From contig JANRIZ010000008.1 in assembly GCA_033764445.1 (NCBI GenBank), positions 13,634 through 77,633 on the forward strand: a stretch of 64,000 nt of DNA, read 5' to 3'. The notes below the pieces were generated by a model. The model saw only the letters and a list, made by a program, of their open reading frames with translations, did not search any database and was not told the origin of the DNA. The translations under genes were made by a program, and so were the position numbers. How positions within the stretch are numbered: the stretch's first letter is position 1; each line of letters begins with the position of its first letter. This document shows positions 5,863 to 24,384 of the stretch, piece by piece. This DNA is from Verrucomicrobiia bacterium. Its GTDB lineage: Bacteria > Verrucomicrobiota > Verrucomicrobiia > JAWXBN01.

Positions 5863-5863
5863 C

Positions 5864-9432: not shown

Positions 9433-9470
9433 AGAATGTTAGAGTATTATGTTAATATGATATTATGATA

Positions 9471-9788
9471 TTACGGTTGGGTTTGTTTCCGGCTGGCCAC
9501 AATGTCCTCCACCCGGTCGGCGAGGATTGAGGTATGGAAAATGCCCGTGGATTCGTCCTTGTGGATGTCCAGCCGTCCGGTGACAGTGAACTTGCTGCCC
9601 AGGGCAATCTCTTTGAAGGCGGGAATCACGGCCTCCCCGAATTTGACGGCCAGTGCAAAGCTGGCCTGGCTGTTTTCAATGTTATGAATGGCCCAGACAT
9701 CACCGAAGACCGGTTCATTCTTGTCATCGGTTTTCAGGACACGGGGAGCCTTGCCCGCCCGGACTTCCAGTGTGATTGAATTTCTCAT
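9471..9788 (-). CDS. SSB-like OB-fold single-stranded DNA-binding protein (short, no acidic tail)
   Basis: Pattern ITLEV...FALAVKFGEAVIPAFKEIALGSKFTVTGRLDIHKDE...ILADRVE resembles the SSB OB-fold consensus. Confidence 0.45.
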   Translation of the reverse strand: MRNSITLEVRAGKAPRVLKTDDKNEPVFGDVWAIHNIENSQASFALAVKFGEAVIPAFKEIALGSKFTVTGRLDIHKDESTGIFHTSILADRVEDIVASRKQTQP

Positions 9789-10567: not shown

Positions 10568-10818
10568 TGTGCGTCGGTCTGTTGCCCGTTGAGTTTTTGA
10601 TCTCGTTCGTTTAGAAAGTATTCAATGATGAAACCGTTTGAGATTTGTATCGTCATTACACTGGTCGCCAATGCGGTGGTAATGATTTCCCGTGAAATAA
10701 GGCACTGGGTGTTTTCCAAAAAAAGCACAACGGCCACAGCACCTATTGTCAGTGCCCAAGTAAAAAGTCGAAGACCAAGGAAAAACCAGAACTGGTCTGT
10801 TGCTGCTTCAGTTTTCAT
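10564..10818 (-). CDS. small membrane protein
   Basis: 84 aa with two hydrophobic helices; coupled to the downstream lipoprotein ORF. Confidence 0.35.
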   Translation of the reverse strand: MKTEAATDQFWFFLGLRLFTWALTIGAVAVVLFLENTQCLISREIITTALATSVMTIQISNGFIIEYFLNERDQKLNGQQTDAQ

Positions 10819-10938
10819 GATTGTTGTCTCTTTTAGTTGTATTTTTCATGTCATGGTTGCCGAGGGACCTTTGACCAATTTTAATGCAGTCCTTCTCCTG
10901 CTCGGATTTTTTTCTCTGTTGAAATGGACAGATTAAAT

Positions 10939-11955
10939 TCATTGCTGGCCTCCCTGAAGCTTGCTGCGGAGTGAGGCCCCCACCGCCGCCTGGCTGGCAT
11001 CGAGGGGCTGGGTGATATAAACGTAGAAGGGCTTGCCCCCGGCCACGCGGACAAAGACGGCTTCGGATTGGATACGGGCGGCGATTTTCTGGGCTTCCTG
11101 CTGCATGGATGCGGCCACGGCTGAGGCCAGGGCGTCTTTGAGTCCGCCGCTTGAGCTGACAGTGGTCGCCCCTCCACCGCTGAAAATGGTTTGCTGGGAG
11201 CGGAATCCCTGGGCGGCGGCTGAGAGGAAGGTTGAAAAGAAAAGCTGCGCGTCGGCGGACCCATCGTAACCTTTGACATCCCCCCTCATCCCGGCGGAGG
11301 CATCGGTGATTTGCCAGCCATTGCCATCCGGATCAGGGGCGGCATCGAGGAGGATGCCAGTAAAGGGCAATTCCACTTCTTTCCCGTCCTCCTCCCTTTT
11401 AAAGACCAGAATCCAGTTGTTTTGACCGCCAATCCGGTCCCGTACCCGGTCGTTTTGACCAAAGCCATGGATCAAGGCCCCGGCAGGAATGACCAGTTCC
11501 TGGGAATCGGACCAGACATCCCGTAGGACAATGCCGATGATTGGGGTGGTCAATTTGGAGGAATCGACAGTATTGATCAAAATGCATTCAATGGGCGTTC
11601 CATAGGACACGCTCCGGCTGCTGATGGTGGGCTTTGAGCTGATAAAAAGAAAAATAGGAGGTTCCGGGGTTCTGGAAGTCCCCACTTCAACCTCCTCCCT
11701 ACGAGGAGGGGGAGGGGCCTGGGGTTGGGCTTCCAACACGGGTATTCCCGTATCCAAAGTCTGAACCGTGGTGGCAATTTCCTGGCCTTTGTCTGTTTTA
11801 TCCTCCTGCTTGGCCAGTGTGGGACCTTTTTTGAGTTTGAAATAAGCACCATAGAAAACGGCAACGATTGTAATCAGGACGATCAGCCAGATGATCCGTC
11901 CATCCTTGGTTTTCCATGAATCAACAAATGTTTTTTGTAGCCAACCCGTACTCAT
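10939..11955 (-). CDS. trbI: TrbI/VirB10-like T4SS protein
   Basis: N-terminal TM helix, Pro-rich linker (QPQAPPPPRREE) and ~200-aa C-terminal domain; position after the trbG-like gene. Confidence 0.6.
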   Translation of the reverse strand: MSTGWLQKTFVDSWKTKDGRIIWLIVLITIVAVFYGAYFKLKKGPTLAKQEDKTDKGQEIATTVQTLDTGIPVLEAQPQAPPPPRREEVEVGTSRTPEPPIFLFISSKPTISSRSVSYGTPIECILINTVDSSKLTTPIIGIVLRDVWSDSQELVIPAGALIHGFGQNDRVRDRIGGQNNWILVFKREEDGKEVELPFTGILLDAAPDPDGNGWQITDASAGMRGDVKGYDGSADAQLFFSTFLSAAAQGFRSQQTIFSGGGATTVSSSGGLKDALASAVAASMQQEAQKIAARIQSEAVFVRVAGGKPFYVYITQPLDASQAAVGASLRSKLQGGQQ

Positions 11956-12944
11956 TTTGCCTCCTCCTTGTTCGCGTCCGCTGGCATTTTTGGCAGCGGC
12001 TCCTCCTCGGTTTTTTCTTCCTCAATCCGGCTTTGGATTTCGGGCTGCACCCGGACCACAAGAATGTTCCATGCATTTTGCCCTGGCAGCAGGTTGTTGC
12101 GCCCGCCGTCAGGTGTCCCGGTGATGGCAAAAAAGACTTTGCTCAAGCCTGGCACAATGTCCCGGTCCGTCAGGGATTCACCTTTGGAGAGTTTTTCCAG
12201 CCCGGAGGCTGACGGACTTCCGGGGGGGATGGTCCCCGATGCCTGGCTTAAGGACTGGTTGTAAATCCGATCCCCGACCCGGACCGCAAAATCATTGCGT
12301 TTGTAGGAAATGGGCTCCAGCGTGTCATTTTGGAGGGTGATGTTGAAAACCAGCGTGTCCTCCTTGTCGAACCGAAACACCTCCTCAATGAGAACCTTGA
12401 AGCCATTGTAAAACATGATCCGCGCCGGTCGGGCGTAGCCCACCCCGGCAACGGCCTCGGGCTGATGCCGGGAAAGGACCGAATAGGCCTTTGCCGTATT
12501 GAGCAGATTGGCCACGACGGCGGGGGAAACGCCGCCGCCGGATGCACCGGGTGCGGGCAGGCTGTAAAAGTACACGGCAAAATCCGGGGCTTTGTCCACT
12601 GCCTCCAGTTCAACGATATAGGCTTTGTTGTTGAAAAAGATGGTCAGGACATCCGAAGCCTTGGGGTGTTTGGCCCGGACTGTCAGGAAAGTCCCGCCGT
12701 CCTTGTACCCCACCACAAAATCCCTCGCGGCACCCGCATCCAAGGCACTCCGTTTCCCGGCCGCCACTCCTTCCAAGGCTCCCGGGAACATCAGTGTGGT
12801 AGTTCCCTTGTCTCCTGGGACTTTGACCTTGTACACCATCCTCTCGTCGAGGCCGTATTGTTTGATGGCCCGCCCGGAGGCTTGCCCCCAGAGGGCTGCT
12901 GGGAAAAGAATGACGATGAAAACCATGAATGACAGTTGCTTCAT
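11952..12944 (-). CDS. trbG: TrbG/VirB9-like T4SS protein
   Basis: Signal peptide and 330 aa secreted protein; overlapping stop/starts within the operon order L-F-G-I. Confidence 0.5.
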   Translation of the reverse strand: MKQLSFMVFIVILFPAALWGQASGRAIKQYGLDERMVYKVKVPGDKGTTTLMFPGALEGVAAGKRSALDAGAARDFVVGYKDGGTFLTVRAKHPKASDVLTIFFNNKAYIVELEAVDKAPDFAVYFYSLPAPGASGGGVSPAVVANLLNTAKAYSVLSRHQPEAVAGVGYARPARIMFYNGFKVLIEEVFRFDKEDTLVFNITLQNDTLEPISYKRNDFAVRVGDRIYNQSLSQASGTIPPGSPSASGLEKLSKGESLTDRDIVPGLSKVFFAITGTPDGGRNNLLPGQNAWNILVVRVQPEIQSRIEEEKTEEEPLPKMPADANKEEAK

Positions 12945-13621
12945 TTGACCCTCCCGAATTGAGCCACCACCAGCGGAAAAAACCCGTTGTTGGCCACGTC
13001 ATCGTTTTTCATGAATATGATGTCGTATTCCTCAATGGGCCGTTCATCCAGAGGCAGGCCCTGGATGGTGCCGGTGCGGAAAAACTGGGCCTTGACGCGG
13101 ACGGAATAGAATTCCTGGCCGTCCTGGGCCACCTTCTTGGGGACGGAGATTTGGAGGACATTGACAAATTGCGAGAAGTTGCGGATGTCCTTGCTCCGGA
13201 CCTCACCAAGGAATTTTTCGCTTTCGCTCCGAGCCTCGTCGCGAGTGGTCTTCACAAAGAGCCGTCGCAACAGTTCCGGGTTGCTCAACCCGGATGGGTT
13301 CATTTCAAACCGCGCCCGCATGACCTGGCGGCACATGTAATCAAAGTGATACTTCTCCTTGAGGAAGTCATCGAGCGGGGTGTAGATGACCGTTCCGTCC
13401 TTGCTGAAAAAGAAAGCCTTCTCCTTTGTTCGCATGGTCCAGACAGTGAATTGCACAAAAATAAAACCCGCAAAACAGGCGGCCAAAAACATGACAAACC
13501 AGAACCGGGCCGCCCATGAGGCGTTGACAATGGCCATGATGGCCGGATGTCCTGGGGAAGGCTCCGGTGCCGGTTTGACGATGGGCGTTTCGTCAATCAA
13601 TGATGAATCAGCTTTATTCAT
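12941..13621 (-). CDS. trbF: TrbF/VirB8-like T4SS protein
   Basis: 226 aa, single N-terminal TM helix then globular domain; operon position. Confidence 0.5.
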   Translation of the reverse strand: MNKADSSLIDETPIVKPAPEPSPGHPAIMAIVNASWAARFWFVMFLAACFAGFIFVQFTVWTMRTKEKAFFFSKDGTVIYTPLDDFLKEKYHFDYMCRQVMRARFEMNPSGLSNPELLRRLFVKTTRDEARSESEKFLGEVRSKDIRNFSQFVNVLQISVPKKVAQDGQEFYSVRVKAQFFRTGTIQGLPLDERPIEEYDIIFMKNDDVANNGFFPLVVAQFGRVK

Positions 13622-13643
13622 AAGTTATTAAGTTATAATGATA

Positions 13644-14927
13644 TTAAGATTTCTTGTAGTAGCGGTCCATGTCGTCGAGTTGCATTTTGATGCGTTTGCG
13701 GGCCTCGGCTCCGTCATCCATCGGAGCGGAGGGCGTGGGGCTGCCACCGCCAGAGTTCTCAATCGAAGCAACTGAGGGGGAGCCAGAAGTGGCCGGGGAG
13801 GGCGTGCCTGTACCACCTGCAGACGCTGTGGGGCTGCCTGAGGAAGATTTTGCTCCGGATGCTTGGCCTCCACCACCACCTCCCTGTGTTTGGGCGGATG
13901 ATCCGCCGCCACTCTGAGGGGAGTCGATGGGTGGGGGAGGGGGGCCACTGGAGGGGGCTTTGTTGGTGAGAGCCTGTGCGCCTTGTGCCGCCCCACCAAG
14001 TCCCTGGACCGCTCCTGCGGCTCCACCCACGGCGGCAGCCCCGCCCAGACTCTTGGCTGCCATAGCCAATCCAATGGCCGCCCCGAGTCCCTGGACACCG
14101 GCTTGTAATGCAGTGGTGGCCGGACCAGCTCCGCGCATGATTGCGGCCACCACAAAAGGCACGGAAAGGTACATGGCATTAACAATGATCGCCCCCAGAA
14201 GGAGTCCGGCGGCAATCAATGCCCATCCAACGGTGGCAACCTGGATGACCGTGTTGGCGGTCCCTAAATTTACCGCCCCTGTCAATCCGCAAGCCTGTAA
14301 TATATCTGCCGTCAACTTGTAAATGATCACATCTACCACGGCCACGCCCAAGGCCCACAGGGCCACCCCGACAGAGGTGAGAATGAAGTTAATCCCGATT
14401 TGCTTCGTCCACGGCAATGCCAAAAATCCAAGGCCCAGAGGGGAGACCACAATCAGCCCGGCCATGGCGAAGTCCTGGAGCCATCCAATAGCTTTGACTC
14501 CAAAAGAACCAATCGCCTGAAAACAGGCTGAAAAGCAATAGCAAAGGTAATCTGCAATATTGAATGCACTCGGTTTTTCGCTGAATTCTGCTCTGAACAA
14601 ACTATGAAAACTTGCCGAATTTTTTTGCGCCACTTCCTCGCGCAGTTCCCAGAAGGCGTCTCGTGTGGCGATCATCGCCTCCCGGTAGCCGGTGATAAGG
14701 ATGACAATGACCAGCCCCACGATCAACGGTTTGAGCATCTTTTCGGGGGTGCGCTCGGCCTGTAGCGCGCCGTAAGCCATGCCCGCCATGGCCATGAGGT
14801 AAGGGATACCCAAGAGTGCCACGCGGAGATTCTCCACCGCCTGGTCCTCGAAAGCGCGTGAACCCCCGGTTCCGCTTGAAACCTGGGCCAAAAAGGGTAT
14901 CATTATACTCATGAAAATTGTCATCAT
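13644..14927 (-). CDS. trbL: TrbL/VirB6-like polytopic T4SS protein
   Basis: 427 aa with multiple TM helices and a Gly/Ser/Pro-rich C-terminal tail, typical of TrbL. Confidence 0.6.
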   Translation of the reverse strand: MMTIFMSIMIPFLAQVSSGTGGSRAFEDQAVENLRVALLGIPYLMAMAGMAYGALQAERTPEKMLKPLIVGLVIVILITGYREAMIATRDAFWELREEVAQKNSASFHSLFRAEFSEKPSAFNIADYLCYCFSACFQAIGSFGVKAIGWLQDFAMAGLIVVSPLGLGFLALPWTKQIGINFILTSVGVALWALGVAVVDVIIYKLTADILQACGLTGAVNLGTANTVIQVATVGWALIAAGLLLGAIIVNAMYLSVPFVVAAIMRGAGPATTALQAGVQGLGAAIGLAMAAKSLGGAAAVGGAAGAVQGLGGAAQGAQALTNKAPSSGPPPPPIDSPQSGGGSSAQTQGGGGGGQASGAKSSSGSPTASAGGTGTPSPATSGSPSVASIENSGGGSPTPSAPMDDGAEARKRIKMQLDDMDRYYKKS

Positions 14928-15126
14928 TTCTCTCCTTGCTGTGGTAGCCGCTTCCCTTCTGACGATCTCGGGACTGATGATCCGTGACCGTCAGGAAAAG
15001 GATCAGGCCCGGCGGGAATACGAAGCTTTTCTCCGGCAGGAGGCCGAAAAAAAGAAAATCCAAGACGAGTATGCCGCCCGTGCCGCCCGAGAACGGGCAG
15101 AGTCTTTTCGCCGCGCTGGCTATTAG
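14911..15126 (+). CDS. small membrane-anchored protein with TrbJ-like C-terminal tail (convergent with trbJ)
   Basis: 71 aa; N-terminal TM helix, then ...ARAARERAESFRRAGY*, while TrbJ ends ...KAKAQRAESFKKNGY*; the two stops are 3 nt apart. Confidence 0.35.
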   Translation: MKIVIISLLAVVAASLLTISGLMIRDRQEKDQARREYEAFLRQEAEKKKIQDEYAARAARERAESFRRAGY

Positions 15127-15128
15127 TT

Positions 15129-15965
15129 TCAGTACCCATTTTTTTTAAATGACTCCGCTCTTTGTGCTTTTGCCTTTTTATCCGCCCGTTTCTCCACTTC
15201 GATCCTGGCTTCCTCCTCGGCTTTGCGCTGTTTTTCGGCATCGTTGTCATTGGCCTCTTTTCGGGCCTGACGCTGATTGTTGGCGGCGGTTTCCTCGGCA
15301 TTGAGCGCGGCGAGTTGGGCCGTCAGTGCCCCGATGCGGACGGACACCGCCCGCTGTTCGGCTTCGGTCTTGGTCTGGACGTTATTGAGCTTTTCGAGTT
15401 CGGACATGATGGTTTTGCGTTTGTCTCGGACCTCTTCGAGAACTTTTTCATGATTGCCCTTCTCGTCCTCGTAGGCGGCGAATTTTTTGTAGAGGTCCAT
15501 ATTGCGGGTGAAAGATGACCCATCCGGTAGAGTGTTCGGGATAGACGCATATAGACCTTGCCCGGTTCCCTGGAGACTCTTGGCCGTGTCCATCGTTTCA
15601 CCGAGGGCATTGGCCAGTTTAAAGGTGGAGGAAAATGCAGAATTGGTGCCGAGATTGCCCATACTCCCCAACATCGAAAGAGCCTGGGACGGATCACCGG
15701 CGATAGTTAAGGCCTTCTGAGCGATTTCAACGTGTTCCTGAATCTTGGCGAATTCCTTATTGAAATTCTCCACGTCCTTGGCCCACTGACCGAGAATGTC
15801 AGTGTGTTGTACGGCTCTCTGTGTCTGTGCCCCGGCGTCATTGACGGCCATTTGTCCCCAGAGGGCTACCGGGGAAAAAAGACAGAGGGTGAGGGTATAC
15901 CAAGAAAGCCGCCGCAAACGGCTTTCCTGACGGTGGAGGGTGTTCTGCTTTGGGGTATGGATCAT
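15129..15965 (-). CDS. trbJ: TrbJ/VirB5-like T4SS protein
   Basis: Signal peptide, 278 aa, coiled-coil rich; operon position before trbL. Confidence 0.5.
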   Translation of the reverse strand: MIHTPKQNTLHRQESRLRRLSWYTLTLCLFSPVALWGQMAVNDAGAQTQRAVQHTDILGQWAKDVENFNKEFAKIQEHVEIAQKALTIAGDPSQALSMLGSMGNLGTNSAFSSTFKLANALGETMDTAKSLQGTGQGLYASIPNTLPDGSSFTRNMDLYKKFAAYEDEKGNHEKVLEEVRDKRKTIMSELEKLNNVQTKTEAEQRAVSVRIGALTAQLAALNAEETAANNQRQARKEANDNDAEKQRKAEEEARIEVEKRADKKAKAQRAESFKKNGY

Positions 15966-16351
15966 AGTTGTTCCTCTTTTTTGGAAGCGGCAGCTTCATT
16001 ATGAACTTCCTGAAAGTGGTTCTTTTGGGTATCCCGTTCTATCGGGTGATTTAACCAATAAACGGAGGTCAAGATGATGATTTGGATGGTAATAATGTGG
16101 ACGCAAAATGACATTGCTCTCATGAAGTCAATCTTTTCATTGCTCGTAATGGTGAGCGGATTTGTTGCGTCTGTTTTGTACATTTGCGATTTTTTGGGGA
16201 GGAGAGAAAAGGTTGTTGAAATCATTGAAAGAGTGACCGCTGAAATCAGCAAAACAGCGCATAATTTCGGCAGGCTCATTTCCGATTTTTTCACAGGGGA
16301 TAGTCTTGATCTGCTGGTCAGGTCAGTGGTCTGTGGATCGTTGTTTTGCAT
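15962..16351 (-). CDS. small membrane protein, duplicated family (paralog of 7206..7610)
   Basis: C-terminal FCVHIITIQIIILTSVYW...QEVHNEAAASKKEEQL matches the 7206..7610 product; ATGA overlap with trbJ. Confidence 0.35.
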   Translation of the reverse strand: MQNNDPQTTDLTSRSRLSPVKKSEMSLPKLCAVLLISAVTLSMISTTFSLLPKKSQMYKTDATNPLTITSNEKIDFMRAMSFCVHIITIQIIILTSVYWLNHPIERDTQKNHFQEVHNEAAASKKEEQL

Positions 16352-16526: not shown

Positions 16527-16762
16527 TTCCAGTTTCATTCCCAGTAGCCCATTGTTTCCTTGTACAGGCGTGAGCCTGTCTAAATTCCTTCCTAAGCGAC
16601 GAGACCGACCGGAGGGAGGGCGAGTGACTAGTCAGGCCCGGAGCGAAGCGGAGGGCCATCCAGTGCTTACTGAGGGCGAGAGCCCGAAGGTCGATTGACA
16701 GGATGGGGGTCTGGGGGAAGGGGCCGGGAAAAATTTTTCGCGAAAATCCGTTTCCCCATCTA

Positions 16763-16780
16763 TGGATAAGATGGATAAGA
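16763..16780 (-). promoter_or_regulatory. two tandem DnaA-box-like sites (cTTATCCATcTTATCCAT on the minus strand)
   Basis: TTATCCAT x2 matches the DnaA box consensus TTATNCACA in 7 of 9 positions; adjacent to an AT-rich stretch and the iterons. Confidence 0.5.
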
Positions 16781-16851
16781 AAAGGGATAGTAAAAAATAT
16801 TGACAATGAATTTTGTTGGATTGAAAGCATCTTATGAAGAATTAAAGCCTT

Positions 16852-17085
16852 CATATCGCATTGAATTCCCCCCAAAAACAGGGGTATAACGCATCGAAAT
16901 CCCCCTAGTGATATATTTTTATTGCCATATCGCACTGTATTCCCCCTATCAAAACGGCATAACGCATCGAAATCCCCCCAAACAGTGGGTATAACGCATT
17001 GAATTCCCCCTATCAAAACGGCATAACGCATCGAAATCCCCCCAGTTTCCCATCTGGAAAAGTCATATCGCATCGAATTCCCCCT
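16852..17085. repeat. iteron array: seven ~22-bp direct repeats (YATAWCGCAYYGWAWTCCCCCY) at 32/42-bp spacing; candidate plasmid oriV
   Basis: Copies start at approximately 16852, 16885, 16926, 16957, 16990, 17022 and 17064; the array abuts the rep stop codon at 17087. Confidence 0.75.
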
Positions 17086-17086
17086 A

Positions 17087-18124
17087 TTAAGCAGCATGAC
17101 TTTTACCCTCCTTTTGGGAGGCTTTGACCTCCAGCATGTAGGTGTTGCCTTTGGCAATTTCGTCAGCAAAAGCTCGGGACACATAGAGCGTCCAGACCGC
17201 CCCAGACAGTTTGGGCCGTTTCCCCGTTTCGATGTAACGCAAGTCCTCTTTGTATGCCTGGATCGGGTGCAGATAGCCGCTGTCCTGGAGTTCCTTGAGA
17301 GCTTTTTGGACCGTGACAAGATAATTCCTAAATTGCTTTAGAGGCGCAACCGGTGCTTCTCGAATGATGGTTTCGAGGGAAATATGAAAGCCGGTTTGCT
17401 TGAAATGGTCGTGGCCAGTTGCCTGTCTGTAATTGTGGTTGATGCGTGTAGCCAGCCAGCGAGCCAGAGGCATCTTGAGGCTGCAGAGTTTTGTATGATT
17501 GATAGGGAAGTAGGCTTGATTCTTGATGGCCTCGCCAATCAGGCTGTGGAAGGACACCCTCACGGTACTGCTCTTTCCGGAATCATCCCCATTTTGATAA
17601 TTATAGGCGAGGTTGATGTAGGTCTGGTGGTGACCAATCCGGTTGTATTTGCCTTCTGCCAGCAATTCCAGCGAGGCAAGGGAAAGGATGTAAAGAGCCT
17701 CCTTGATTTCGGCGATTTTGTAGCCGTGTCCGACGGCGACAAGTTCCTTACGAATTCGGTAGAGAGTGGTATTGACGCAGACAAAGTAGCTTTGTGTTTC
17801 GGCCCCGACATTTAATGATGACTGTTCAACCGCGAGTTTTCGCAAGACTCGCTCAACGAGTTCTTCACGCGCCCCTGGTAAACGATAGACACCCTTGGCA
17901 ATCTCGGCACACCGGACCACAGCCCGGAGGGATCGGTTTTTAAACTTGAATTCAGTGACCTGCATTTCATGCGGTTTTCCTTCAAAAAAACGGGTTGCCG
18001 CATCGTAAATATCCACCGTCCTGGATTCATCGTTTTTTCCAAACCACCCTTGAAAAAAGTCAGTCTGCCGGGCCTCTGAGGCCGGAACCATGACTTCCTT
18101 CTGTGGTTTTTCTTTGTCGTTCAT
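17087..18124 (-). CDS. plasmid replication initiator (Rep) protein
   Basis: 345-aa ORF whose 3' end abuts the iteron array; winged-helix-like basic protein. Called from context plus general RepA-like features. Confidence 0.55.
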   Translation of the reverse strand: MNDKEKPQKEVMVPASEARQTDFFQGWFGKNDESRTVDIYDAATRFFEGKPHEMQVTEFKFKNRSLRAVVRCAEIAKGVYRLPGAREELVERVLRKLAVEQSSLNVGAETQSYFVCVNTTLYRIRKELVAVGHGYKIAEIKEALYILSLASLELLAEGKYNRIGHHQTYINLAYNYQNGDDSGKSSTVRVSFHSLIGEAIKNQAYFPINHTKLCSLKMPLARWLATRINHNYRQATGHDHFKQTGFHISLETIIREAPVAPLKQFRNYLVTVQKALKELQDSGYLHPIQAYKEDLRYIETGKRPKLSGAVWTLYVSRAFADEIAKGNTYMLEVKASQKEGKSHAA

Positions 18125-18128: not shown

Positions 18129-18539
18129 TTATCCCTGAAAATTCGTTGGCTCTACGTGATTCAAAGTTGTGTCGTCGCTTGCGATTTGCTGACAGACCTC
18201 TTCCGGGAGATTTGGATTCAACAGGTGAAGCTCATAGCGCGAGTTCCGATAAAAGAGCCGGATGACGGGAATCCGGAGGTAATAGATGGAAATCCAAGGA
18301 AAAGAGTCATCCGTAGTATCGCGGTTAAACACGACAGCCCCATTATTTTTGAGATCGGCAAAATCGGGATCAAGGTTGTAGTGAGTTTCGAGAAAGAATG
18401 CCAAAGCCAGCGTGAGATAATGTTTGCGCCGGTGCCCAATTTCAAAAGTCCCTGCCGGGAAATAAGCCTCATCATAGATGAGGTAATTTCCACAACATCT
18501 AATCTTTTCAGGATGAGGCATTTTCTCGTGTTCGTTCAT
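18129..18539 (-). CDS. hypothetical protein
   Basis: 136 aa; its stop lies 5 nt upstream of the rep start, co-oriented. Confidence 0.4.
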   Translation of the reverse strand: MNEHEKMPHPEKIRCCGNYLIYDEAYFPAGTFEIGHRRKHYLTLALAFFLETHYNLDPDFADLKNNGAVVFNRDTTDDSFPWISIYYLRIPVIRLFYRNSRYELHLLNPNLPEEVCQQIASDDTTLNHVEPTNFQG

Positions 18540-18570
18540 AACTTTATAAGTTAATATGATATGAAGTTTA

Positions 18571-18849
18571 TTATTTTTGGGTTTCGACGACCGGGACTGA
18601 TTGGTCTTGAATGAGCAACCGGCAAAGCCGATACAATTCGATGATGGAAAAAATATTGATCATTGCGGCAATTATGCTGATAGCAGTCGGCAAATTTTTG
18701 GAGTCCACAGGGAATTTTGTGGAGAAAATCAGGGCCAAGGAAAGAGTCCCAAAAAGTGACATCCCAAATGTCAAAAGCCGGTACAACCGCCGCAGGTGCC
18801 TTTCCTGCTGTGTGAGTGCCATTTGTTTGTTCATTTCGCTTTCCTGCAT
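18571..18849 (-). CDS. small membrane protein
   Basis: 92 aa with two TM helices. Confidence 0.35.
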   Translation of the reverse strand: MQESEMNKQMALTQQERHLRRLYRLLTFGMSLFGTLSLALIFSTKFPVDSKNLPTAISIIAAMINIFSIIELYRLCRLLIQDQSVPVVETQK

Positions 18850-18954
18850 TTGTTACCTGCTTTCTCGTTCTGGAGTGCCTTTGACCGGCTTTGACGGTGT
18901 GGTGGTCATTGTGGGGCTGGTGTATTTGATGTTATTTTTGAATCGTTAAATCTG

Positions 18955-19398
18955 TCACTTGCCCTGGGTTTCAACGACCGGGACGGCCACAGTGGAATTG
19001 GTCAGATATATGGTGCCCTGGGGCGTCTGGACAGTCGTAGGCGTGGGAACTTCGTAGTAGTTGTATCGAAGCTGGCCCTTGGTAGTGGTGGACGGCTCTT
19101 TCGCTCTCAACTGTGCCCAATAGAGACGCTTGGCAGCATCAGAGCCGCCCCGGTCATAACCGCGGTTGTATTCATTGCGTTTGGCGTTGCTGACAGAGGC
19201 TTGGATGCCTTCGGAAATCAGGACCCCACCGGCTGCGCCTCCGATGGTGGCAATCGGATCGCCTCCGGAAGCCATGTAACCGACCCCCGCCCCGGCTGCT
19301 CCGGCTCCCGCATCGTAGAGGCCGCGGTTGCTGGCACATCCGGTCAGAAAAATGGCTACCGGGAAAACAAAAATCAAAAGAGTGGAATGAATTTTCAT
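18955..19398 (-). CDS. glycine-zipper lipoprotein (17-kDa surface antigen/Pcp-like; VirB7/TrbH-like candidate)
   Basis: Lipobox FLTGC; GAGAAGAGVGYMASGG...GGAAGGVLISEG glycine-zipper motif. Confidence 0.5.
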   Translation of the reverse strand: MKIHSTLLIFVFPVAIFLTGCASNRGLYDAGAGAAGAGVGYMASGGDPIATIGGAAGGVLISEGIQASVSNAKRNEYNRGYDRGGSDAAKRLYWAQLRAKEPSTTTKGQLRYNYYEVPTPTTVQTPQGTIYLTNSTVAVPVVETQGK

Positions 19399-19727
19399 GG
19401 GGTGATTCGTGTGATTGGTTTGATGGTTTGAAGTGGGATATTTTCGGGCCGGGTGTTCTGGGGTGTGAGTTGGGCATTGAGTTCCTGGATAAACCCCTGT
19501 CGGAGTTTGTCAGCGGAGTGGGGGAAGGTGTCGGCCACGGCCAGAACGTCCTCATGGATTTTGAGGATGTTCCGGCGTGTGGTCATTCGGAATGATCCCG
19601 CCTGACGGACATCAAACCCCTCCTGGGCAGAGAACTCATTGGTGGCCTTGAGTACGTCCGCCCCCAGAGTCAGAAGGTCGTCTTTCATCTGGCGGTAATG
19701 TTCGAGGTAGTAGAGGGGCTTTTTCAT
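19395..19727 (-). CDS. hypothetical protein
   Basis: ORF 19395..19955 trimmed to the Met at 19727 (MKKPLYY), directly after the upstream stop. Confidence 0.4.
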   Translation of the reverse strand: MKKPLYYLEHYRQMKDDLLTLGADVLKATNEFSAQEGFDVRQAGSFRMTTRRNILKIHEDVLAVADTFPHSADKLRQGFIQELNAQLTPQNTRPENIPLQTIKPITRITP

Positions 19728-19728
19728 G

Positions 19729-20595
19729 TTATCTGTCGTAGTAACCGGGCCTCGCCTCGGCATCGGGGACAGTGGCCCCGTTGCCTCCGCCAAAGGGAGA
19801 GCGGCCGTTGTTGAGGAAGGTGTTGCCCGTGTTAAAAATCCCCATCCCCATTCCGCCGAAGGAAATGACATCGTTCCAGAGATTCCCGCCCAAGAGGCCA
19901 CTGGTCCTATTTGAGAACTTGGTGTTCTGGGCGTTGAGCTGGGCTTGCAGGTCATTGACCTGGGACTGGGTGGCCAGACCCGTGGGAATGTTGGCCAGTT
20001 GGTTGGAGAGGGTGGTGTATTGACCTTGGAGAGTCGCCAACTGGTTACTGAGGGAGGTAATGTTTGCGGTATTGGTCGTCACTTGTCCCTGTGTGGCCGC
20101 CAGAGAATTGCTGAGAGAATTAATCTGCCCTTGGAGATTGGTTACAAAGGCATTGAGTTGGGCAAGAATCCGCAAATCCGTTTCCCCGTCCTCGTTTTCA
20201 AGAATGATCAGCGTCGAGGCGGTTTTGGTGGTCAGTCCGGCCCCTGCGGATCGGACCAATGAAGTGGTCAATGATCCGGGCGGAAGATTTGTAAATTTCT
20301 GAACCGCCGCCCCACCACTGACCCAATCACCCCCATTATCTTTGTTTGCTTCCCGGTAGGTGATGATATTGACGCCGTTGGTTTGGAGGGTAAAGGCCTC
20401 GGCTGAGGATGAATCTCCGACGGTATTGACAACCGTGTAATAAGAAACCGACCCCGTCCTGGTGAGGGTAAAGTCAAATGACTGGAAAGTGGCTCCAACA
20501 GCGATATTTTGGGCTGTATTGGTATAGACTATCTTCTGAGCCTGGAGAACAGACGTGAGACAAAGCAGGGTGAGGAGAGTGAGAATTTTTTTCAT
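19729..20595 (-). CDS. secreted repeat-containing protein (possible pilus-tip/adhesin-like T4SS accessory)
   Basis: Signal peptide MKKILTLLTLLCLTSVLQA; internal repeats LSNQLATLQGQYTTLSNQLANIPTG / LQGQINSLSNSLAATQGQVTT. Confidence 0.45.
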   Translation of the reverse strand: MKKILTLLTLLCLTSVLQAQKIVYTNTAQNIAVGATFQSFDFTLTRTGSVSYYTVVNTVGDSSSAEAFTLQTNGVNIITYREANKDNGGDWVSGGAAVQKFTNLPPGSLTTSLVRSAGAGLTTKTASTLIILENEDGETDLRILAQLNAFVTNLQGQINSLSNSLAATQGQVTTNTANITSLSNQLATLQGQYTTLSNQLANIPTGLATQSQVNDLQAQLNAQNTKFSNRTSGLLGGNLWNDVISFGGMGMGIFNTGNTFLNNGRSPFGGGNGATVPDAEARPGYYDR

Positions 20596-20634
20596 AATAT
20601 GATAATATGATATTGGGTTTTGGGGTGGGGGAGA

Positions 20635-23304
20635 TTAGGCGGCTTCGCGGCCCATCAAGTCCTCGGGCCGGATGTTGGTCTTTTCCTGTTTGGTCCAGTA
20701 ATCCTTGACGATTTTGCGGGTGGCCTCGGAAACCACATTGATCATGGTGCCGCAGATGGGCCGTTGGGCGTCGAGGTGGTAGTAGGTGAATTTTGAATAG
20801 GCGTAGTCGATGTGCTCGGGAAGATCGTATTCCATGATCTCGTTTTTGGTCGCCTCCGGCAGGCCAAAGACCTGGCTGATGTCCTCAAGGTCATCCCGGT
20901 CGTTCTGTTTCTGGAGCAGGAGCATTTTGGCGTTACCGAAGACAATGGGCCGGATACGGCTTTGTTTGAACTGGGCGTACTGCTGGACGATTGAGCAGAC
21001 CCAAGCGCGGAATTTGCGCATTTGCGCGTAGGTTTCCTTGACAAATTCCTCTCCCCCTGGGATGTCGAGCAAGCGGGCCACTTCCTCAAAAATCACCGCC
21101 TTCCGGAGACTCCTGGGAAGGGAAATGATGTGTTGCCTGACAAACATGGCTATGAGGAAACCGGCCAAGTCCTTCAGCTCGGAATTGGCGCGGAGATCAC
21201 CCAGTTCAAAGTGGGTGAGGGCCTGAGTGAGTTTGATATTTGTCACCCCGTCGAAAAGTTTTCCGTTTGATCCACGGTCCGCCGTCCACGTTTCCAAGAC
21301 CGTGGCAATGTCCCGGACAAACCGGGCATCGTGGTTTGACATCGGAGTCATTTTCATGGCTTCGACAAGGGTTGAGTGCCTGGGCATTTCTTCAGGCGTC
21401 AAAAAGGCATAGGCCAGATTCCTCACCAGAATCTGGGTGGTGGGAGTTTTGTAGAATCTTGCGACATCCTCGCCACTGTATGATTCAATGACTTTGTGAA
21501 GTTCCAGACTCGCCTCGTTTTCGCGGGCATAAGCAAAAGCCTCGACAAAGGTGGTCGTGGCATCATCCTTCTTGAGAATGCGCTGGATACGACTGATGGC
21601 CATGGTCATCCGGGCAAAGTAATCCGCCTTGTCGGGCCGGTACTTGACCCAGTTCTGGAAGGTTCGGGTGTAAAGCCGTGTAATATAGGAGGTGATGAGG
21701 GATTTCTTGAGATACTGCTTATCCTCGTCGGATACATGGCCAGCCATGCGTGCCGCAATGGCCGAGGCCGTTTCAATGTGGCTGAAATTGAGTGGCAACC
21801 CGTGCGTGTCCAGATAATTGATGGTCAATTCCCCATCGGCCTGGAGAAAGATGGTCTGACCCATGCAGGCTTTGACCAGAGGGCCGTAGGAATTTCCCTC
21901 CTCGATGATGGCCGTGTAGTGGAGAAACGGAAGAATCTGACTGAGAAGGTCAAACATGAGCATGGATTTCCCCGCCCCTGACATGCCCAGCAGAACGGCA
22001 TGTTGAGGCTGACCATTGATGTCGGTCCTGATTCCGGCTAATGCGTTGTGGTTTGAGTCGTAGAATGCCTCCGCCTGGTCAAGATGCCCTGAAAAGGACG
22101 AACTCAAGGGCATGATCCGGGCCAACACCTTGTCCTCACTGTATTTTTTATGATCGGTGTATGTCCCGTAAATCCAGCCTGGCCAGCTTTGGAAAAAGAG
22201 CTTCCGGCTCGTGGCAAAAGTCAGCGGCCTGTGATACCTGGCTCCTGGAATACGTTCAATGATGTCTTCGAGGCGGGCCGTGTTCCTGGCCAATTCATCG
22301 GGGGAGGCTGCCCAGAGCCTGAAAATGTAATCAATCTCATGGGGAGTGGTCACCCCCAGGGAAATATTTTCGAGCCGTTGTTTGCGCATGTTGAATTCGG
22401 TAAGCAAATCCTCGTCCTGTTTGGAAGCGTAGGAAGTCTTGAGGTCATTCATGATGGCCTGTTCCTTGCGCTTGGCCTTGCGGATGTCCATCGGATAGAC
22501 GTTGACAGTGATGTTGTAGTCCAGAAGGTCCGTGTGCGTGTATTGCAGGGCGGAAGTCTCCTCGGTGACATCCGGCAGGCGGGATAGAACGAGAATGTTC
22601 TGGTAGAACCCATCCCACGCAAACCCAAAGGCGGGCCGGTGCCTCAACCCCCCCTGCATCTCGCTGTTGAGACAATTCCGGCAGATGGATTCCCCTGGCT
22701 GAAACTGGTTGCTGATGTCGAGATTAAAGCGTGTATGAAGCGAGGGCCGGAGGAAATAGCTCAAATGCTTGAAATGATCAATATCATCCATGGGAAGAAG
22801 ACTGGAACCCGTGGGGCGGAAACGGTTCATCAGGGAGCTTTGGAGCAACTCAAATTCGGAGTGAAGCTCGTCAATAATGTCCTCCCAGAACTTGCGGATG
22901 TCATTTTTGGAAAGACCCGCCGGTGGGCTGTTTTTGATTGGCCGTGAAAAGTAAACCCTCATCACTTCGCGCCGGTGCTTCCGGTTCCGGACATTGTTCC
23001 AGGCTCGGGCGGCCCTTTCCTCCCGGTTTTTTTTGGGCCATCCGTCGGGCATGGCCTTGGTCTGGACATTGTAGGCCAGAATCTCCTTCCGATAATCGCT
23101 ATCCGGCATGAATTGCCCTTGGATGCGCCATTTGACAGACAGGGAATTGAGTTGGTTGCACACCGCCCGCTCGAATTTGGCCAAACCGGCATCACCGGCA
23201 TTGGACCGGTCCGGGCCTTCAAAAAGAAAGCCACGGGAAACCCACTGGGGCGGGTCGCCCCATACGAGCATATCTTTGATAAAATAGCCGTCCGGGCAGT
23301 TCAT
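20635..23304 (-). CDS. trbE: VirB4/TrbE/CagE-family T4SS ATPase
   Basis: 889 aa; Walker A motif GMSGAGKS; size and architecture of VirB4. Confidence 0.85.
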   Translation of the reverse strand: MNCPDGYFIKDMLVWGDPPQWVSRGFLFEGPDRSNAGDAGLAKFERAVCNQLNSLSVKWRIQGQFMPDSDYRKEILAYNVQTKAMPDGWPKKNREERAARAWNNVRNRKHRREVMRVYFSRPIKNSPPAGLSKNDIRKFWEDIIDELHSEFELLQSSLMNRFRPTGSSLLPMDDIDHFKHLSYFLRPSLHTRFNLDISNQFQPGESICRNCLNSEMQGGLRHRPAFGFAWDGFYQNILVLSRLPDVTEETSALQYTHTDLLDYNITVNVYPMDIRKAKRKEQAIMNDLKTSYASKQDEDLLTEFNMRKQRLENISLGVTTPHEIDYIFRLWAASPDELARNTARLEDIIERIPGARYHRPLTFATSRKLFFQSWPGWIYGTYTDHKKYSEDKVLARIMPLSSSFSGHLDQAEAFYDSNHNALAGIRTDINGQPQHAVLLGMSGAGKSMLMFDLLSQILPFLHYTAIIEEGNSYGPLVKACMGQTIFLQADGELTINYLDTHGLPLNFSHIETASAIAARMAGHVSDEDKQYLKKSLITSYITRLYTRTFQNWVKYRPDKADYFARMTMAISRIQRILKKDDATTTFVEAFAYARENEASLELHKVIESYSGEDVARFYKTPTTQILVRNLAYAFLTPEEMPRHSTLVEAMKMTPMSNHDARFVRDIATVLETWTADRGSNGKLFDGVTNIKLTQALTHFELGDLRANSELKDLAGFLIAMFVRQHIISLPRSLRKAVIFEEVARLLDIPGGEEFVKETYAQMRKFRAWVCSIVQQYAQFKQSRIRPIVFGNAKMLLLQKQNDRDDLEDISQVFGLPEATKNEIMEYDLPEHIDYAYSKFTYYHLDAQRPICGTMINVVSEATRKIVKDYWTKQEKTNIRPEDLMGREAA

Positions 23305-23672
23305 GATATTGCTTCCCAGGAGTCTGAGTTTTCATCAGGAAAGGCGAGGGGATGGCGGATGGATTTTGCAAGGTCTGGCTTCCACGATTTTTCAAGGTTG
23401 AAAACATCATGGAAATAATCCTTGTCGTAGGCCGGAGGTTTACCCTGCCTGAAACCGAATATCCAAACGCTCGCCAGAATCACAGGTACGGCCGCCAGCC
23501 CAAACTTGATCGCATAGTGCAAGTTCCAAGTCTTGAGCTGATAGAGGCACCCCATGGCAAGCATGACTCCCCCGATGAATATGAAGGCGTTTTCATTGCC
23601 TTCAAAGATCAGGAACTTGCCCTTGCTTTCGTCGGCTCCGAGTGTGCGATAGACGGTAGGCATATGGGTCAA
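23301..23672 (-). CDS. VirB3/TrbD-like small membrane protein
   Basis: ~120 aa with a hydrophobic hairpin, immediately upstream of and overlapping virB4 (TTG/ATG start at 23672/23663). Confidence 0.45.
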   Translation of the reverse strand: MTHMPTVYRTLGADESKGKFLIFEGNENAFIFIGGVMLAMGCLYQLKTWNLHYAIKFGLAAVPVILASVWIFGFRQGKPPAYDKDYFHDVFNLEKSWKPDLAKSIRHPLAFPDENSDSWEAIS

Positions 23673-23818
23673 TTTCCCAGGATGAGCCAGTCAAAGAGGT
23701 AGATGCCAATGGCTGCGGCGGCCAAGGCCACGCCCGTCCAGTTGCGTTTGCCTTCCTCTGTCTTGAAGTAGAAGAAGTAGCCGGAGGCCATGAGAAGGAT
23801 GATGGTGAGGATTTTCAT
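23669..23818 (-). CDS. unannotated 49-aa two-TM ORF (MKILTIILLMASGYFFYFKTEEGKRNWTGVALAAAAIGIYLFDWLILGN)
   Basis: Hand translation; ATG at 23818, TGA overlapping the downstream start; not in the ORF track (<60 aa). Confidence 0.3.
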   Translation of the reverse strand: MKILTIILLMASGYFFYFKTEEGKRNWTGVALAAAAIGIYLFDWLILGN

Positions 23819-23848
23819 ATGATATTATGATGATGTTTTGTTTGAGGA

Positions 23849-24148
23849 TTATTCGATTTTGACTTTTGAGCCTGATAGCCCGCCGATATCGTAGTAGGCT
23901 TCCATGATGGCCGGTGCGGCCGCCACCATGAGCCCGATCAAAAGCCCAAACTTGGCTTTTTCGCGGTCGGAACTCATGTAGAACCCGGACCCGGCGACGG
24001 CAATGGCTCCGAGAAGGAAAAGAATTTTGAAGACAATGTTTCCGCCCTTGGAAAGCAACTGATCAAGATTAGCGGCGGCAAAAATGAAGGCTGGGGAGAA
24101 TAGGATTTGATTTCCTATGATACTAAGGTGGATGATAAACATCTGCAT
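23849..24148 (-). CDS. VirB2/TrbC pilin-like protein
   Basis: 99 aa with two hydrophobic helices separated by a short charged loop; first gene of the T4SS operon. Confidence 0.45.
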   Translation of the reverse strand: MQMFIIHLSIIGNQILFSPAFIFAAANLDQLLSKGGNIVFKILFLLGAIAVAGSGFYMSSDREKAKFGLLIGLMVAAAPAIMEAYYDIGGLSGSKVKIE

Positions 24149-24384
24149 GATGGTTGGTTCCTTCGTTCACATTCAAAAAAACATTGACGCCTGACCTTGA
24201 ATCAAGGGTTGTCAGTGTTTTTAAGAAATGTGCGTTTTGTTTGGTTTTTTGGGTTCTATTCATCGCTTTTCCATTATGAACTGGCATAATTAACTATGCA
24301 CAATTTATGTATTGTAAAGTAAATGAAAAAATGTGGCTATGATGAAAGCGAAAGCACCTGAGGAGCTTGGACAATCAGCCTGCA

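What the first reader, a model, noticed from the sequence alone, without database searches (positions are those of the whole stretch)
16760..18124. Iteron-type oriV: seven 22-bp iterons at 32/42-bp phasing, two DnaA boxes and an AT-rich tract abutting the rep gene
Seven copies of YATAWCGCAYYGWAWTCCCCCY lie at alternating ~32- and ~42-bp spacing (3-4 helical turns). A 60-bp AT-rich tract (gatagtaaaaaatattgacaatgaattttgttgg...) and TTATCCATcTTATCCAT (two DnaA-box-like sites) precede them. The stop codon of a 345-aa basic protein follows directly. This is the textbook architecture of a theta-replicating iteron plasmid origin, here inside chromosomal context.
Basis: seen in the sequence. Interest (0 to 1): 0.65.

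Follow-up and report, generated by a model that had tools for sequence, protein, structure and literature searches.

The report
Iteron replication origin of conjugative element
This is a real plasmid-type replication origin (seven initiator-binding repeats, an easily melted AT-rich stretch and a conserved DnaA-box-like motif) next to its initiator gene; it sits inside a conjugative mobile element that lies beside chromosomal genes of a Verrucomicrobiae bacterium, so it is a new example of a well-known kind of system.

Summary
Seven 22-bp direct repeats lie at 16852-17085, spaced 33/41/32/32/32/42 bp and all on one helical face. They abut the stop codon of a 345-aa basic ORF (17087-18124, minus strand). 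Beyond them lie a 62-nt 73%-AT tract and the DnaA-box-like TTATCCAT pair.

The ORF matches no Pfam, NCBIfam or PDB sequence model. Profile comparison nevertheless shows a full-length homologue of IncA/C (IncC) RepA (hhalign E 1e-75). Its AlphaFold model (pLDDT 90) matches only iteron initiators (RctB, RepE).

In 57 of 69 related metagenomic loci an iteron array starts at the rep stop codon. The closest clade shares a fixed layout: a constant GGGGGAAAT half-iteron, spacings 43-32-53-41-33, a 62-nt spacer, then TATCC-N7-TATCC-N4-TATCC.

rep and oriV sit inside the type IV secretion operon of a conjugative element of at least 34 kb (GC 50%). Its right end (about 24.28-24.32 kb) joins chromosomal genes (GC 58%), and independent assemblies cross that junction. 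The left end was not reached.

Verdict: iteron oriV plus Rep, a new member of a known kind. Integration is likely but not proven, and activity is untested.

The parts
17087..18124 (-). rep: 345-aa basic initiator of the IncA/C-RepA superfamily with a tandem winged-helix fold
   Evidence: ORF and translation. pI 9.4. tblastn matches 1267 plasmid records annotated as replication proteins. BLASTP vs IncC RepA: 27% identity over 247 aa, E 1e-21. hhalign vs IncC RepA: probability 100%, E 1.4e-75, 319 columns. AF2 model pLDDT 90.1, pTM 0.90. The Foldseek hits with E<2e-3 are all RctB or RepE/Rep-iteron complexes.
16852..17085 (-). Iteron array: 7 direct repeats of about 22 bp at 16852-16873, 16885-16906, 16926-16947, 16958-16979, 16990-17011, 17022-17043 and 17064-17085. 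In rep orientation they read GGGGGA(A/T)TTC(G/A)ATGCG(T/A)TAT(G/A).
   Evidence: The constant half GGGGGAA(A/T)T is shared with iterons of homologous loci.
16790..16851 (.). 62-nt AT-rich spacer, the presumed DNA-unwinding element
   Evidence: About 73% AT. The spacer length is the same in the window and in L007, L008, L010 and L011, in a gap-free alignment.
16761..16791 (-). Conserved triple motif TATCC-N7-TATCC-N4-TATCC(A). It includes the two DnaA-box-like 9-mers TTATCCATC (16770-16778) and TTATCCATA (16761-16769).
   Evidence: The regex occurs once in the 64-kb window, at this place. It occurs 35 times in the 80 related loci and 0 times in shuffles.
16560..16740 (.). GC-rich stretch (about 60% GC) distal to the origin core; a comparable GC-rich stretch follows the TATCC block in homologous loci
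   Evidence: Function unknown.
18129..24148 (-). Tightly packed upstream gene string ending in rep. Products in order: 99 aa, 49 aa, 120 aa, VirB4/TraC-like (889 aa, 20635-23304), 288 aa, 110 aa, 147 aa, 92 aa, 136 aa, then rep. Intergenic gaps are 30, 5, -4, 39, 1, -4, 105, 31 and 4 nt.
   Evidence: Gene calls on L005 mapped to the window. VirB4 family hits.
1..16351 (-). Remainder of the conjugative element within the window. It includes a TrbI/VirB10-like gene (10939-11955), a Toprim/DUF3991 gene (5864-6829), a MuF_C gene (5053-5862), ArdC (3702-4631) and a relaxase-like gene (1820-3061). The element continues at least 9.6 kb to the left of the window.
24280..24316 (.). Right border of the element: a 37-nt segment bracketed by recurrent contig ends in independent assemblies. 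GC rises from about 50% to about 58% beyond 25 kb.

Best explanation
What it is: window 16761-18124 is the vegetative replication module (rep plus oriV) of a conjugative mobile element.

Proposed mechanism (inferred):
- Monomers of the 345-aa Rep, a tandem winged-helix protein distantly related to IncA/C RepA, bind the seven same-face iterons that begin at the gene's own stop codon.
- One winged-helix domain reads the family-constant half GGGGGAA(A/T)T. The other reads the lineage-specific half, TTC(G/A)ATGCG(T/A)TAT.
- The Rep-iteron complex melts the adjacent 62-nt AT-rich spacer. It does so together with a factor bound at the fixed-distance TATCC triple. That factor is most likely host DnaA on a cluster of weak boxes; alternatively it is Rep itself contacting one DNA strand.
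- The host helicase is then loaded and theta replication follows.
- Excess Rep or paired arrays would limit copy number by handcuffing, as in other iteron replicons.
- Because rep is the last gene of a tightly packed type IV secretion gene string, initiator supply is probably tied to expression of the transfer genes. The origin would then fire mainly when the element is active or excised, not while it sits quietly in the chromosome.

Shown here: the repeats, their phasing, the homology, the fold, and the conserved layout.

Inferred only: binding, melting, DnaA use, the coupling to transfer, and any activity at all.
For: - Repeats are real, unique in the window and in helical phase.
- Rep is a full-length homologue of IncC RepA and of 1267 plasmid-borne replication proteins.
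- The AF2 model (pLDDT 90.1) matches only iteron initiators at E<2e-3. These include RepE54 bound to iteron DNA and the Rep-iteron-DUE ssDNA complex 8aan.
- Related rep genes carry iterons at the same place. This holds for 9 hand-checked loci, including IncC. It also holds for 57 of 69 analysable metagenome loci, which have at least 5 copies of an 11-mer, against at most 4 in coding controls.
- Iterons co-vary with Rep lineage in one half and stay constant in the other.
- Spacings 43-32-53-41-33, the 62-nt spacer and the TATCC triple are conserved among Reps only 34-39% identical to this one.
- Some family members carry a fused DnaA N-terminal domain, a replication-linked fusion.
- IncA/C replicons are reported to have 11-14 19-bp iterons and one DnaA box. 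The integrated island SGI1 has rep followed directly by an experimentally validated iteron oriV (PMC7433901).
- No other iteron copy exists in the window, so this array is the only candidate origin.
Against: - No experiment exists: neither binding nor replication has been shown for any member of this clade.
- The protein reaches threshold for no curated family.
- Foldseek TM-scores are modest (0.32-0.48 on the query, up to 0.60 on the target).
- The DnaA-like boxes have 1-2 mismatches and a single box is not statistically enriched.
- Strong AT-richness of the spacer is not conserved in all homologous loci.
- An active theta origin inside a chromosome would be harmful, so it may be silent here.
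- No promoter or regulator for rep was identified.
Confidence: 0.85

Rival explanations
1. Inactive relic: a conjugative plasmid integrated into the chromosome, and its rep/oriV is now a silent, decaying remnant with no present function.
For: The element is joined to chromosomal genes on the right. An active iteron origin in a chromosome is expected to be selected against (inference). A DUF4160-like reading frame next to the border carries an in-frame stop (read from the sequence).
Against: The rep ORF is intact and keeps every invariant residue of the 77-sequence family alignment. All seven iterons fit the consensus with 0 mismatches. The conserved spacing, spacer and TATCC layout is intact. 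Transfer genes on both sides are intact ORFs. Element-side contigs from five sequencing runs are 100% identical to the window.
Confidence: 0.12
2. The repeat array is a copy-number or incompatibility control locus (like P1 incA), or a partition centromere, and the true origin lies elsewhere.
For: Iterons downstream of rep act as a control locus in P1 (established knowledge). A ParA gene exists in the element.
Against: There is no second iteron cluster anywhere in the window. The AT-rich spacer and the DnaA-like motif sit directly next to this array at a conserved distance. ParA lies about 20 kb away, beyond the window's left edge. The array follows rep, not par, in every related locus. In IncA/C and SGI1 the iterons downstream of rep are the origin (PMC7433901).
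Confidence: 0.05
3. The element is a free plasmid, and its apparent position beside chromosomal genes is an assembly artefact.
For: GC shifts from 50% to 58% at the border. In three runs contigs break at 24279|24280 or 24316|24317. No att direct repeat was found and no tRNA gene is present. The left border was never reached.
Against: Single k=31 contigs from two independent runs (L020, L024) cross the border without a break and are 99.93% identical to the window. The NCBI MAG contig also crosses it (and the window itself). A tyrosine recombinase gene lies in the element's left part. Strain SNPs just right of the border (24324, 24339, 24345) could explain some of the breaks.
Confidence: 0.15

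Closest known systems
IncA/C (IncC) plasmid replicon: RepA plus downstream 19-bp iterons and a DnaA box (e.g. pNDM102337, pVCR94)
   Same: RepA is homologous over the full length (hhalign E 1.4e-75, 319 columns). Iterons lie downstream of rep in direct orientation at spacings of about 23, 31-33 and 42 bp. DnaA boxes lie in the origin. Both sit on a conjugative element.
   Different: Identity is only 27%. The iteron sequence is unrelated (ATATGTGGGAACGCTGCACG versus GGGGGAWTTCRATGCGWTAT). IncC has 11-14 iterons spread over about 800 bp that start about 120 nt after the stop codon. IncC has perfect DnaA boxes rather than the TATCC triple. The hosts are in different phyla.
SGI1 rep-oriV (Salmonella genomic island 1; PMC7433901)
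   Same: It is an integrated mobile element with an iteron oriV immediately downstream of rep, plus a DnaA box and AT-rich regions. rep expression is tied to activation of transfer. The iteron consensus RKGGGGGHRATTATGCG looks superficially like GGGGGAWTTCRATGCG.
   Different: SGI1 Rep belongs to the RepA_C family (PF04796). The RepA_C-type Reps of pXAC64 show no detectable relationship to this family (hhalign E 0.4-0.6). SGI1 is mobilisable rather than self-transmissible, and it has four 17-bp iterons.
Structurally characterised iteron initiators: mini-F RepE (1rep, 7sgc, 8aan) and Vibrio cholerae RctB domains 2-3 (5tbf)
   Same: They share the tandem winged-helix fold and are the only significant structural matches. 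The expected mechanism is the same: monomers on iterons, melting of an adjacent AT-rich element, and ssDNA contact (PMC10602881, PMC4081077; listed).
   Different: Sequence identity is 8-13% and a profile search finds no PDB match. The protein is about 100 aa longer than RepE. In F the origin iterons lie upstream of repE and overlap its promoter region; here they lie only at the 3' end.
Pfam Rep_3 (PF01051/PF21205), TrfA (PF07042) and RPA (PF10134) initiator families
   Same: A few family members give sub-threshold hits to exactly these initiator models.
   Different: No member, including the window protein, reaches a gathering threshold.
Chlamydia plasmid initiator Pgp2 (PMC11895440)
   Same: The host belongs to the same PVC superphylum (established knowledge). 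It was likewise identified as an iteron initiator from an AlphaFold model that matched pi, RepE and RctB while lacking sequence homology to known initiators.
   Different: No sequence comparison was made here. The Chlamydia plasmid is small (eight proteins) and non-conjugative.

Membership tests
Iteron-type theta replicon (Rep winged-helix initiator plus iteron oriV) | Initiator with tandem winged-helix (WH1-WH2) fold | tested here: met
   AF2 pLDDT 90.1. All 41 Foldseek PDB hits with E<2e-3 are RctB or RepE/Rep-iteron complexes, and the next hit has E 0.09.
Iteron-type theta replicon (Rep winged-helix initiator plus iteron oriV) | Several directly repeated 17-22-bp sites next to rep, in helical phase | tested here: met
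   7 copies against 0.11 expected. All spacings lie within 1.5 bp of multiples of 10.5 bp, P about 9e-4.
Iteron-type theta replicon (Rep winged-helix initiator plus iteron oriV) | AT-rich unwinding element adjacent to the iterons | tested here: met
   16790-16851 is about 73% AT. The spacer length is conserved.
Iteron-type theta replicon (Rep winged-helix initiator plus iteron oriV) | DnaA box(es) in the origin | tested here: inconclusive
   Two tandem 9-mers have 1 and 2 mismatches to TTATCCACA, and a single box is not enriched. They form part of a conserved TATCC triple. Which factor binds it is unknown.
Iteron-type theta replicon (Rep winged-helix initiator plus iteron oriV) | Rep binds the iterons and the fragment replicates autonomously | not testable with these tools
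   Requires EMSA or footprinting and a replication assay.
IncA/C RepA protein superfamily | Full-length sequence homology to IncA/C RepA | tested here: met
   BLASTP E 1e-21, 27% identity over 247 aa. hhalign probability 100%, E 1.4e-75, 319 columns.
IncA/C incompatibility group (replicon in the strict sense) | IncA/C-type 19-bp iterons (yaTRTGGGNNcgcTGCACG) | tested here: not met
   The window's iterons are unrelated in sequence. The IncA/C consensus comes from PMC7433901.
Pfam Rep_3 (PF01051, PF21205) | HMM score above the gathering threshold | tested here: not met
   The window protein has no hit (and at E up to 10). Only 2-3 of 77 relatives hit, with E at best 1e-3.
Pfam TrfA (PF07042) | HMM score above the gathering threshold | tested here: not met
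   No hit for the window protein. 3 of 77 relatives hit at E 0.014 or weaker.
RepA_C family (PF04796; SGI1 and pXAC64 Rep) | Sequence or profile similarity to RepA_C-type initiators | tested here: not met
   No Pfam hit. hhalign against both pXAC64 Reps gives E 0.38-0.62.
Integrative and conjugative element (ICE) | Complete conjugation set: type IV secretion system, coupling protein and relaxase | tested here: met
   VirB4. TrbI and a weak relaxase hit. The coupling protein lies in the left flank.
Integrative and conjugative element (ICE) | Integrase belonging to the element | tested here: inconclusive
   A 304-aa tyrosine recombinase lies about 7 kb left of the window in low-GC DNA. It could equally be a plasmid multimer-resolution enzyme.
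Integrative and conjugative element (ICE) | Chromosomal DNA on both sides with att repeats | tested here: inconclusive
   The right junction is crossed by independent contigs. The left end was not reached. No att repeat was found.

The most novel reading that the evidence does not exclude
A self-transmissible element of Verrucomicrobiae lives integrated in the chromosome yet keeps a complete theta-type iteron replicon. The replicon is wired into its type IV secretion operon, so replication is switched on together with transfer. This would make it a replicative ICE or plasmid hybrid. It would belong to a large family with no curated model (about 1,800 clusters at 50% identity), whose origins follow a strict, previously undescribed layout: a constant GGGGGAAAT half-iteron, spacings 43-32-53-41-33, a 62-nt spacer and a TATCC triple.
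Probability: 0.3. Interest if true: 0.6.

Novelty: new member of a known kind. Interest (0 to 1): 0.4.

Why it matters
- It assigns a function to a protein family that current annotation leaves as 'hypothetical'. The family has about 1,800 clusters at 50% identity and no Pfam or NCBIfam model.
- It ties that family to the medically important IncA/C RepA.
- It yields a simple DNA signature (iterons at the rep stop codon, fixed spacings, a TATCC triple) that could be used to find origins in metagenomes.
- It offers a candidate replicon for building genetic tools for Verrucomicrobia.
- If the element is truly integrated, it adds a non-proteobacterial case to the continuum between ICEs and plasmids, with replication apparently coupled to transfer genes.

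Tried and rejected
- Sequence-model searches of Rep found nothing: Pfam, NCBIfam, PDB by phmmer and PDB by profile.
- A megablast of 14-24 kb against PLSDB found no near-identical plasmid.
- The upstream coupled small ORFs are not conserved between loci, so the idea of a conserved two-gene rep module was dropped.
- The search for an att direct repeat between the right border and the 9.1-kb left flank gave only a 14-mer inside the T4SS operon, which I rejected.
- The genome-contig scan meant to retrieve the MAG contig or an empty site found only an unrelated proteobacterial hit, so the left border stayed unresolved.
- The resemblance of the SGI1 iterons suggested a Rep relationship, but profile comparison with the pXAC64 RepA_C-type Reps rejected it.
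- There is no Rfam family in 1-26 kb and no tRNA gene in the window.
- The promoter and terminator scan around rep was uninformative.
- Literature searches found no description of the GGGGGAAAT iteron, and no paper on iteron plasmids of Verrucomicrobia appeared among the listed top hits.
Full report
**1. Checking the observation**

The region reads as described. The repeat finder reports seven direct copies that start at 16852, 16885, 16926, 16958, 16990, 17022 and 17064. It matches nothing else in the 64 kb even with three mismatches allowed: 0.11 hits are expected, and none of 100 shuffles reaches 7.

The spacings are 33, 41, 32, 32, 32 and 42 bp. They are therefore not alternating, but each lies within 1.5 bp of a multiple of 10.5 bp, so every copy faces the same side of the helix (P about 9e-4). 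Odd and even copies alternate between two subtypes, the mark of a duplicated 64-bp two-iteron unit.

The last copy ends at 17085. The stop codon of the ORF 17087-18124 (minus strand, 345 aa, pI 9.4) occupies 17087-17089. On the other side lie a 73%-AT tract and two tandem 9-mers, TTATCCATC and TTATCCATA, on the minus strand at 16761-16778. These have 2 and 1 mismatches to the DnaA box TTATCCACA. As an isolated word, TTATCCAY is not enriched in the window (4 found, 2.7 expected).

**2. The protein**

The ORF hits no model in Pfam, NCBIfam or PDB sequences. An identical protein is recorded as a hypothetical protein of a Verrucomicrobiae MAG on a 97,036-bp contig.

tblastn against PLSDB nevertheless finds 1267 plasmid records at 25-30% identity, and most listed matches lie under genes annotated as replication proteins. 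They include:
- IncC plasmids of Enterobacterales.
- Plasmids of Acidithiobacillus, Methylomonas, Microbulbifer and Halomonas.
- Pseudomonas megaplasmids.

Pairwise BLASTP with IncC RepA gives 27% identity over 247 residues, E 1e-21. A 77-sequence profile of the window protein's relatives aligns with IncC RepA over 319 columns at probability 100%, E 1.4e-75. The same profile finds nothing in PDB sequences. Its members give only scattered sub-threshold hits, among them the initiator models RPA, TrfA, Rep3_N and Rep3_C.

The AlphaFold model built on that alignment is confident (pLDDT 90.1, pTM 0.90). In Foldseek against the PDB, all 41 matches with E below 2e-3 are iteron initiators:
- RctB domains 2-3 (1e-7).
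- RepE54 bound to iteron DNA.
- The Rep-iteron-DUE ssDNA complex 8aan.

The next match has E 0.09 and is unrelated. TM-scores are modest, up to 0.60 on the target. I put this down to different domain orientation and about 100 extra residues, which is inference.

An exhaustive HMM search counts 1799 clusters at 50% identity with E up to 1e-3, and 848 with E up to 1e-30. Nearly all the relatives listed by the word-indexed profile search are unnamed and carry no Pfam domain. Some 500-600-aa members carry a C-terminal DnaA N-terminal domain (PF11638), a fusion consistent with a role in replication initiation.

**3. Comparative evidence that the repeats belong to the protein**

In nine hand-checked loci the non-coding DNA directly downstream of the rep homologue holds a direct-repeat array. 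These are five metagenomic loci with Reps 34-38% identical to the window's, and four PLSDB plasmids including IncC. The first copy often overlaps the stop codon.

Read in rep orientation, the arrays are:

| Locus | Iteron |
|---|---|
| window | GGGGGA(A/T)TTC(G/A)ATGCG(T/A)TAT |
| L007 | CGGGGGAAATAGACGTTAAAG |
| L008 | CGGGGGAAATAGGGGCGAAAG |
| L010, L011 | GGGGGAAATnnnCGCGAAAG |
| Acidithiobacillus pACF1 (L002) | AGGGGAAATAGGTGACGGGTC |
| Methylomonas plasmid (L004) | GGGGGAATAGGTCGCGG |

One half is constant and the other varies with the lineage. This is what a two-domain reader would give if one domain were conserved and the other set specificity (inference).

A scan of JGI metagenomes returned 80 further loci. 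Of the 69 with enough downstream sequence, 57 carry at least five copies of an 11-mer (one mismatch allowed) within 600 nt of the stop codon. Equal-sized coding controls never exceed four copies.

In the clade closest to the window, the rep-distal spacings are 43-32-53-41-33 in almost every locus. The window has 42-32-32-32-41-33: the same ends, with the 53-bp step replaced by two 32-bp steps.

**4. A conserved non-iteron motif**

An essentially gap-free alignment of the window with L007, L008, L010 and L011 shows a fixed 62-nt spacer after the last iteron. The block cTATCCcTTTcTTTATCCcTTTTATCCAa follows it.

The regex TA[TA]CC-N5-9-TA[TA]CC-N3-5-TA[TA]CC occurs 35 times in the 80 loci, against 0 in shuffles. 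It occurs once in the whole window, at 16789 on the minus strand. A GC-rich stretch follows it in all loci.

The block stays constant while iteron specificity changes. I therefore infer that it is read by something conserved:
- Most likely host DnaA on a cluster of weak boxes.
- Alternatively a conserved Rep surface contacting one strand of the opened DNA, as described for TrfA and RepE (PMC4081077 and PMC10602881, listed).

This step is not shown. Strong AT-richness of the spacer is seen in the window and in L008 but not in all loci.

**5. Context**

The window has two parts.

Positions 1 to about 24.3 kb have GC about 50% and encode a conjugation apparatus, almost entirely on the minus strand:
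- A relaxase-like protein.
- ArdC.
- A MuF_C-domain protein.
- A Toprim/DUF3991 protein.
- TrbI/VirB10.
- VirB4/TraC.

From about 25.1 kb onward GC is about 58% and the genes are chromosomal housekeeping genes: an opp transporter, accC, smc, fmt and others.

rep is the last gene of a tightly packed string that starts at 24148 and includes VirB4, with gaps of -4 to 105 nt. Further secretion-system genes follow the origin on the same strand. The replicon is thus embedded within the transfer genes.

A 26.6-kb contig from an independent run extends at least 9.6 kb beyond the window's left edge, of which 9.15 kb could be read. It adds two Fic proteins, the coupling protein, an AAA ATPase, ParA, a 304-aa tyrosine recombinase and a ScpB-like protein, all still in low-GC DNA. 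The element is therefore at least 34 kb long, and its left end was not reached. The MAG is not among the GTDB representatives that could be scanned.

At the right end, single contigs from two runs cross from the chromosomal 575-aa gene and DUF2442 into the secretion operon (L020 and L024, 99.93% identical to the window). Contigs from three other runs stop at 24280, 24287 or 24316. These recurrent ends bracket a 37-nt segment that may be an attachment core. However, strain SNPs at 24324, 24339 and 24345 could also cause breaks, and no second copy of the segment was found.

I conclude that the adjacency to the chromosome is real. Integration is likely (about 70-85%) but not proven.

**6. Mechanism and rivals**

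The best explanation is a functional rep-oriV module of the IncA/C-RepA superfamily that works as other iteron replicons do. Its initiator supply is probably coupled to expression of the transfer operon. The precedent is SGI1, an integrated island whose rep is followed directly by a validated iteron oriV and is expressed only when transfer is activated (PMC7433901).

The rivals are:
- **A silent relic.** Against this, the ORF is intact, the iterons are perfect and the layout is preserved.
- **A control or partition locus, with the origin elsewhere.** Against this, no other iterons exist, and the spacer and TATCC block are attached to this array.
- **An assembly artefact for the chromosomal adjacency.** Against this, two contigs cross the junction.

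**7. Comparison and novelty**

The module works like IncA/C, F, RK2 and SGI1 origins.
- It belongs to the IncA/C RepA protein superfamily by sequence.
- It does not belong to the IncA/C incompatibility group, because the iterons differ.
- It does not belong to Pfam Rep_3, TrfA or RepA_C (tested, not met).

I rate it a new member of a known kind. The parts that seem undescribed are the family-wide origin layout, the size of the family that lacks any curated model, the Verrucomicrobiae host and the embedding in the secretion operon. Two literature searches found no prior description, but the library is incomplete.

Interest is moderate (0.4).

Noticed in passing
window 16734-16757 (minus strand): Just beyond the TATCC block lies GGGGAAACGGATTTTCGCGAAAA. 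It resembles the iterons of sister lineages (GGGGGAAATnnnCGCGAAAG in L010 and L011) more than the window's own iterons, though the gap between its two halves is 4 nt longer. It may be a vestigial ancestral iteron or a chance match.
   Followed up: partly
P0097, P0080, P0101, P0113, P0116, P0124: A subset of this Rep family is 500-600 aa long and carries a C-terminal DnaA N-terminal domain (PF11638). This suggests direct recruitment of helicase or partner proteins by the plasmid initiator in those lineages.
   Followed up: partly
window 24280-24316: Contigs of five independent sequencing runs either end at 24279|24280 or 24316|24317 or run straight through. SNPs at 24324, 24339, 24345 and 24547 separate haplotypes on the chromosome side, while element-side contigs are 100% identical to the window. 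This is a possible attachment core or a structural polymorphism at the element border.
   Followed up: partly
window 24385-24870 (minus strand): A DUF2442 gene (24385-24687) is preceded by what reads as a DUF4160-like frame (MPEIFRKNGFIFFLYSNEGNEPIHVHVR*...) with an in-frame stop. This would be a degraded toxin-antitoxin-like pair right at the element/chromosome border. The DUF4160 assignment is by eye and was not tested.
   Followed up: no
L014 11117-20720 (about 0.4 to 9.2 kb left of window position 1): The element's left part encodes two Fic-domain proteins, a coupling protein, a ClpB-like AAA ATPase, ParA, a 304-aa XerC/D-like tyrosine recombinase and a ScpB-like protein (E 1e-11), all in low-GC DNA. 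A ScpB-like gene on a mobile element is unusual.
   Followed up: partly
window 16968-17015: Independent k=31 assemblies break inside the iteron array: one contig ends at 17015 and the neighbouring one at about 16968. The cause is that two-iteron units share exact repeats longer than 31 bp. Short metagenomic contigs of this family will therefore often lose their origin.
   Followed up: yes
window 5053-5862 and 5864-6829 (minus strand): A phage MuF C-terminal domain protein sits next to a Toprim/DUF3991 primase-like protein and ArdC within the transfer region. These are probably proteins exported to the recipient during conjugation.
   Followed up: no
window 16074-16526 (+) and 15962-16351 (-): Two overlapping antisense ORFs (150 aa and 129 aa) lie just beyond the origin's GC-rich flank. 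The minus-strand ORF is start/stop-coupled to the next secretion-system gene and is probably the real one. Neither has a family match.
   Followed up: no
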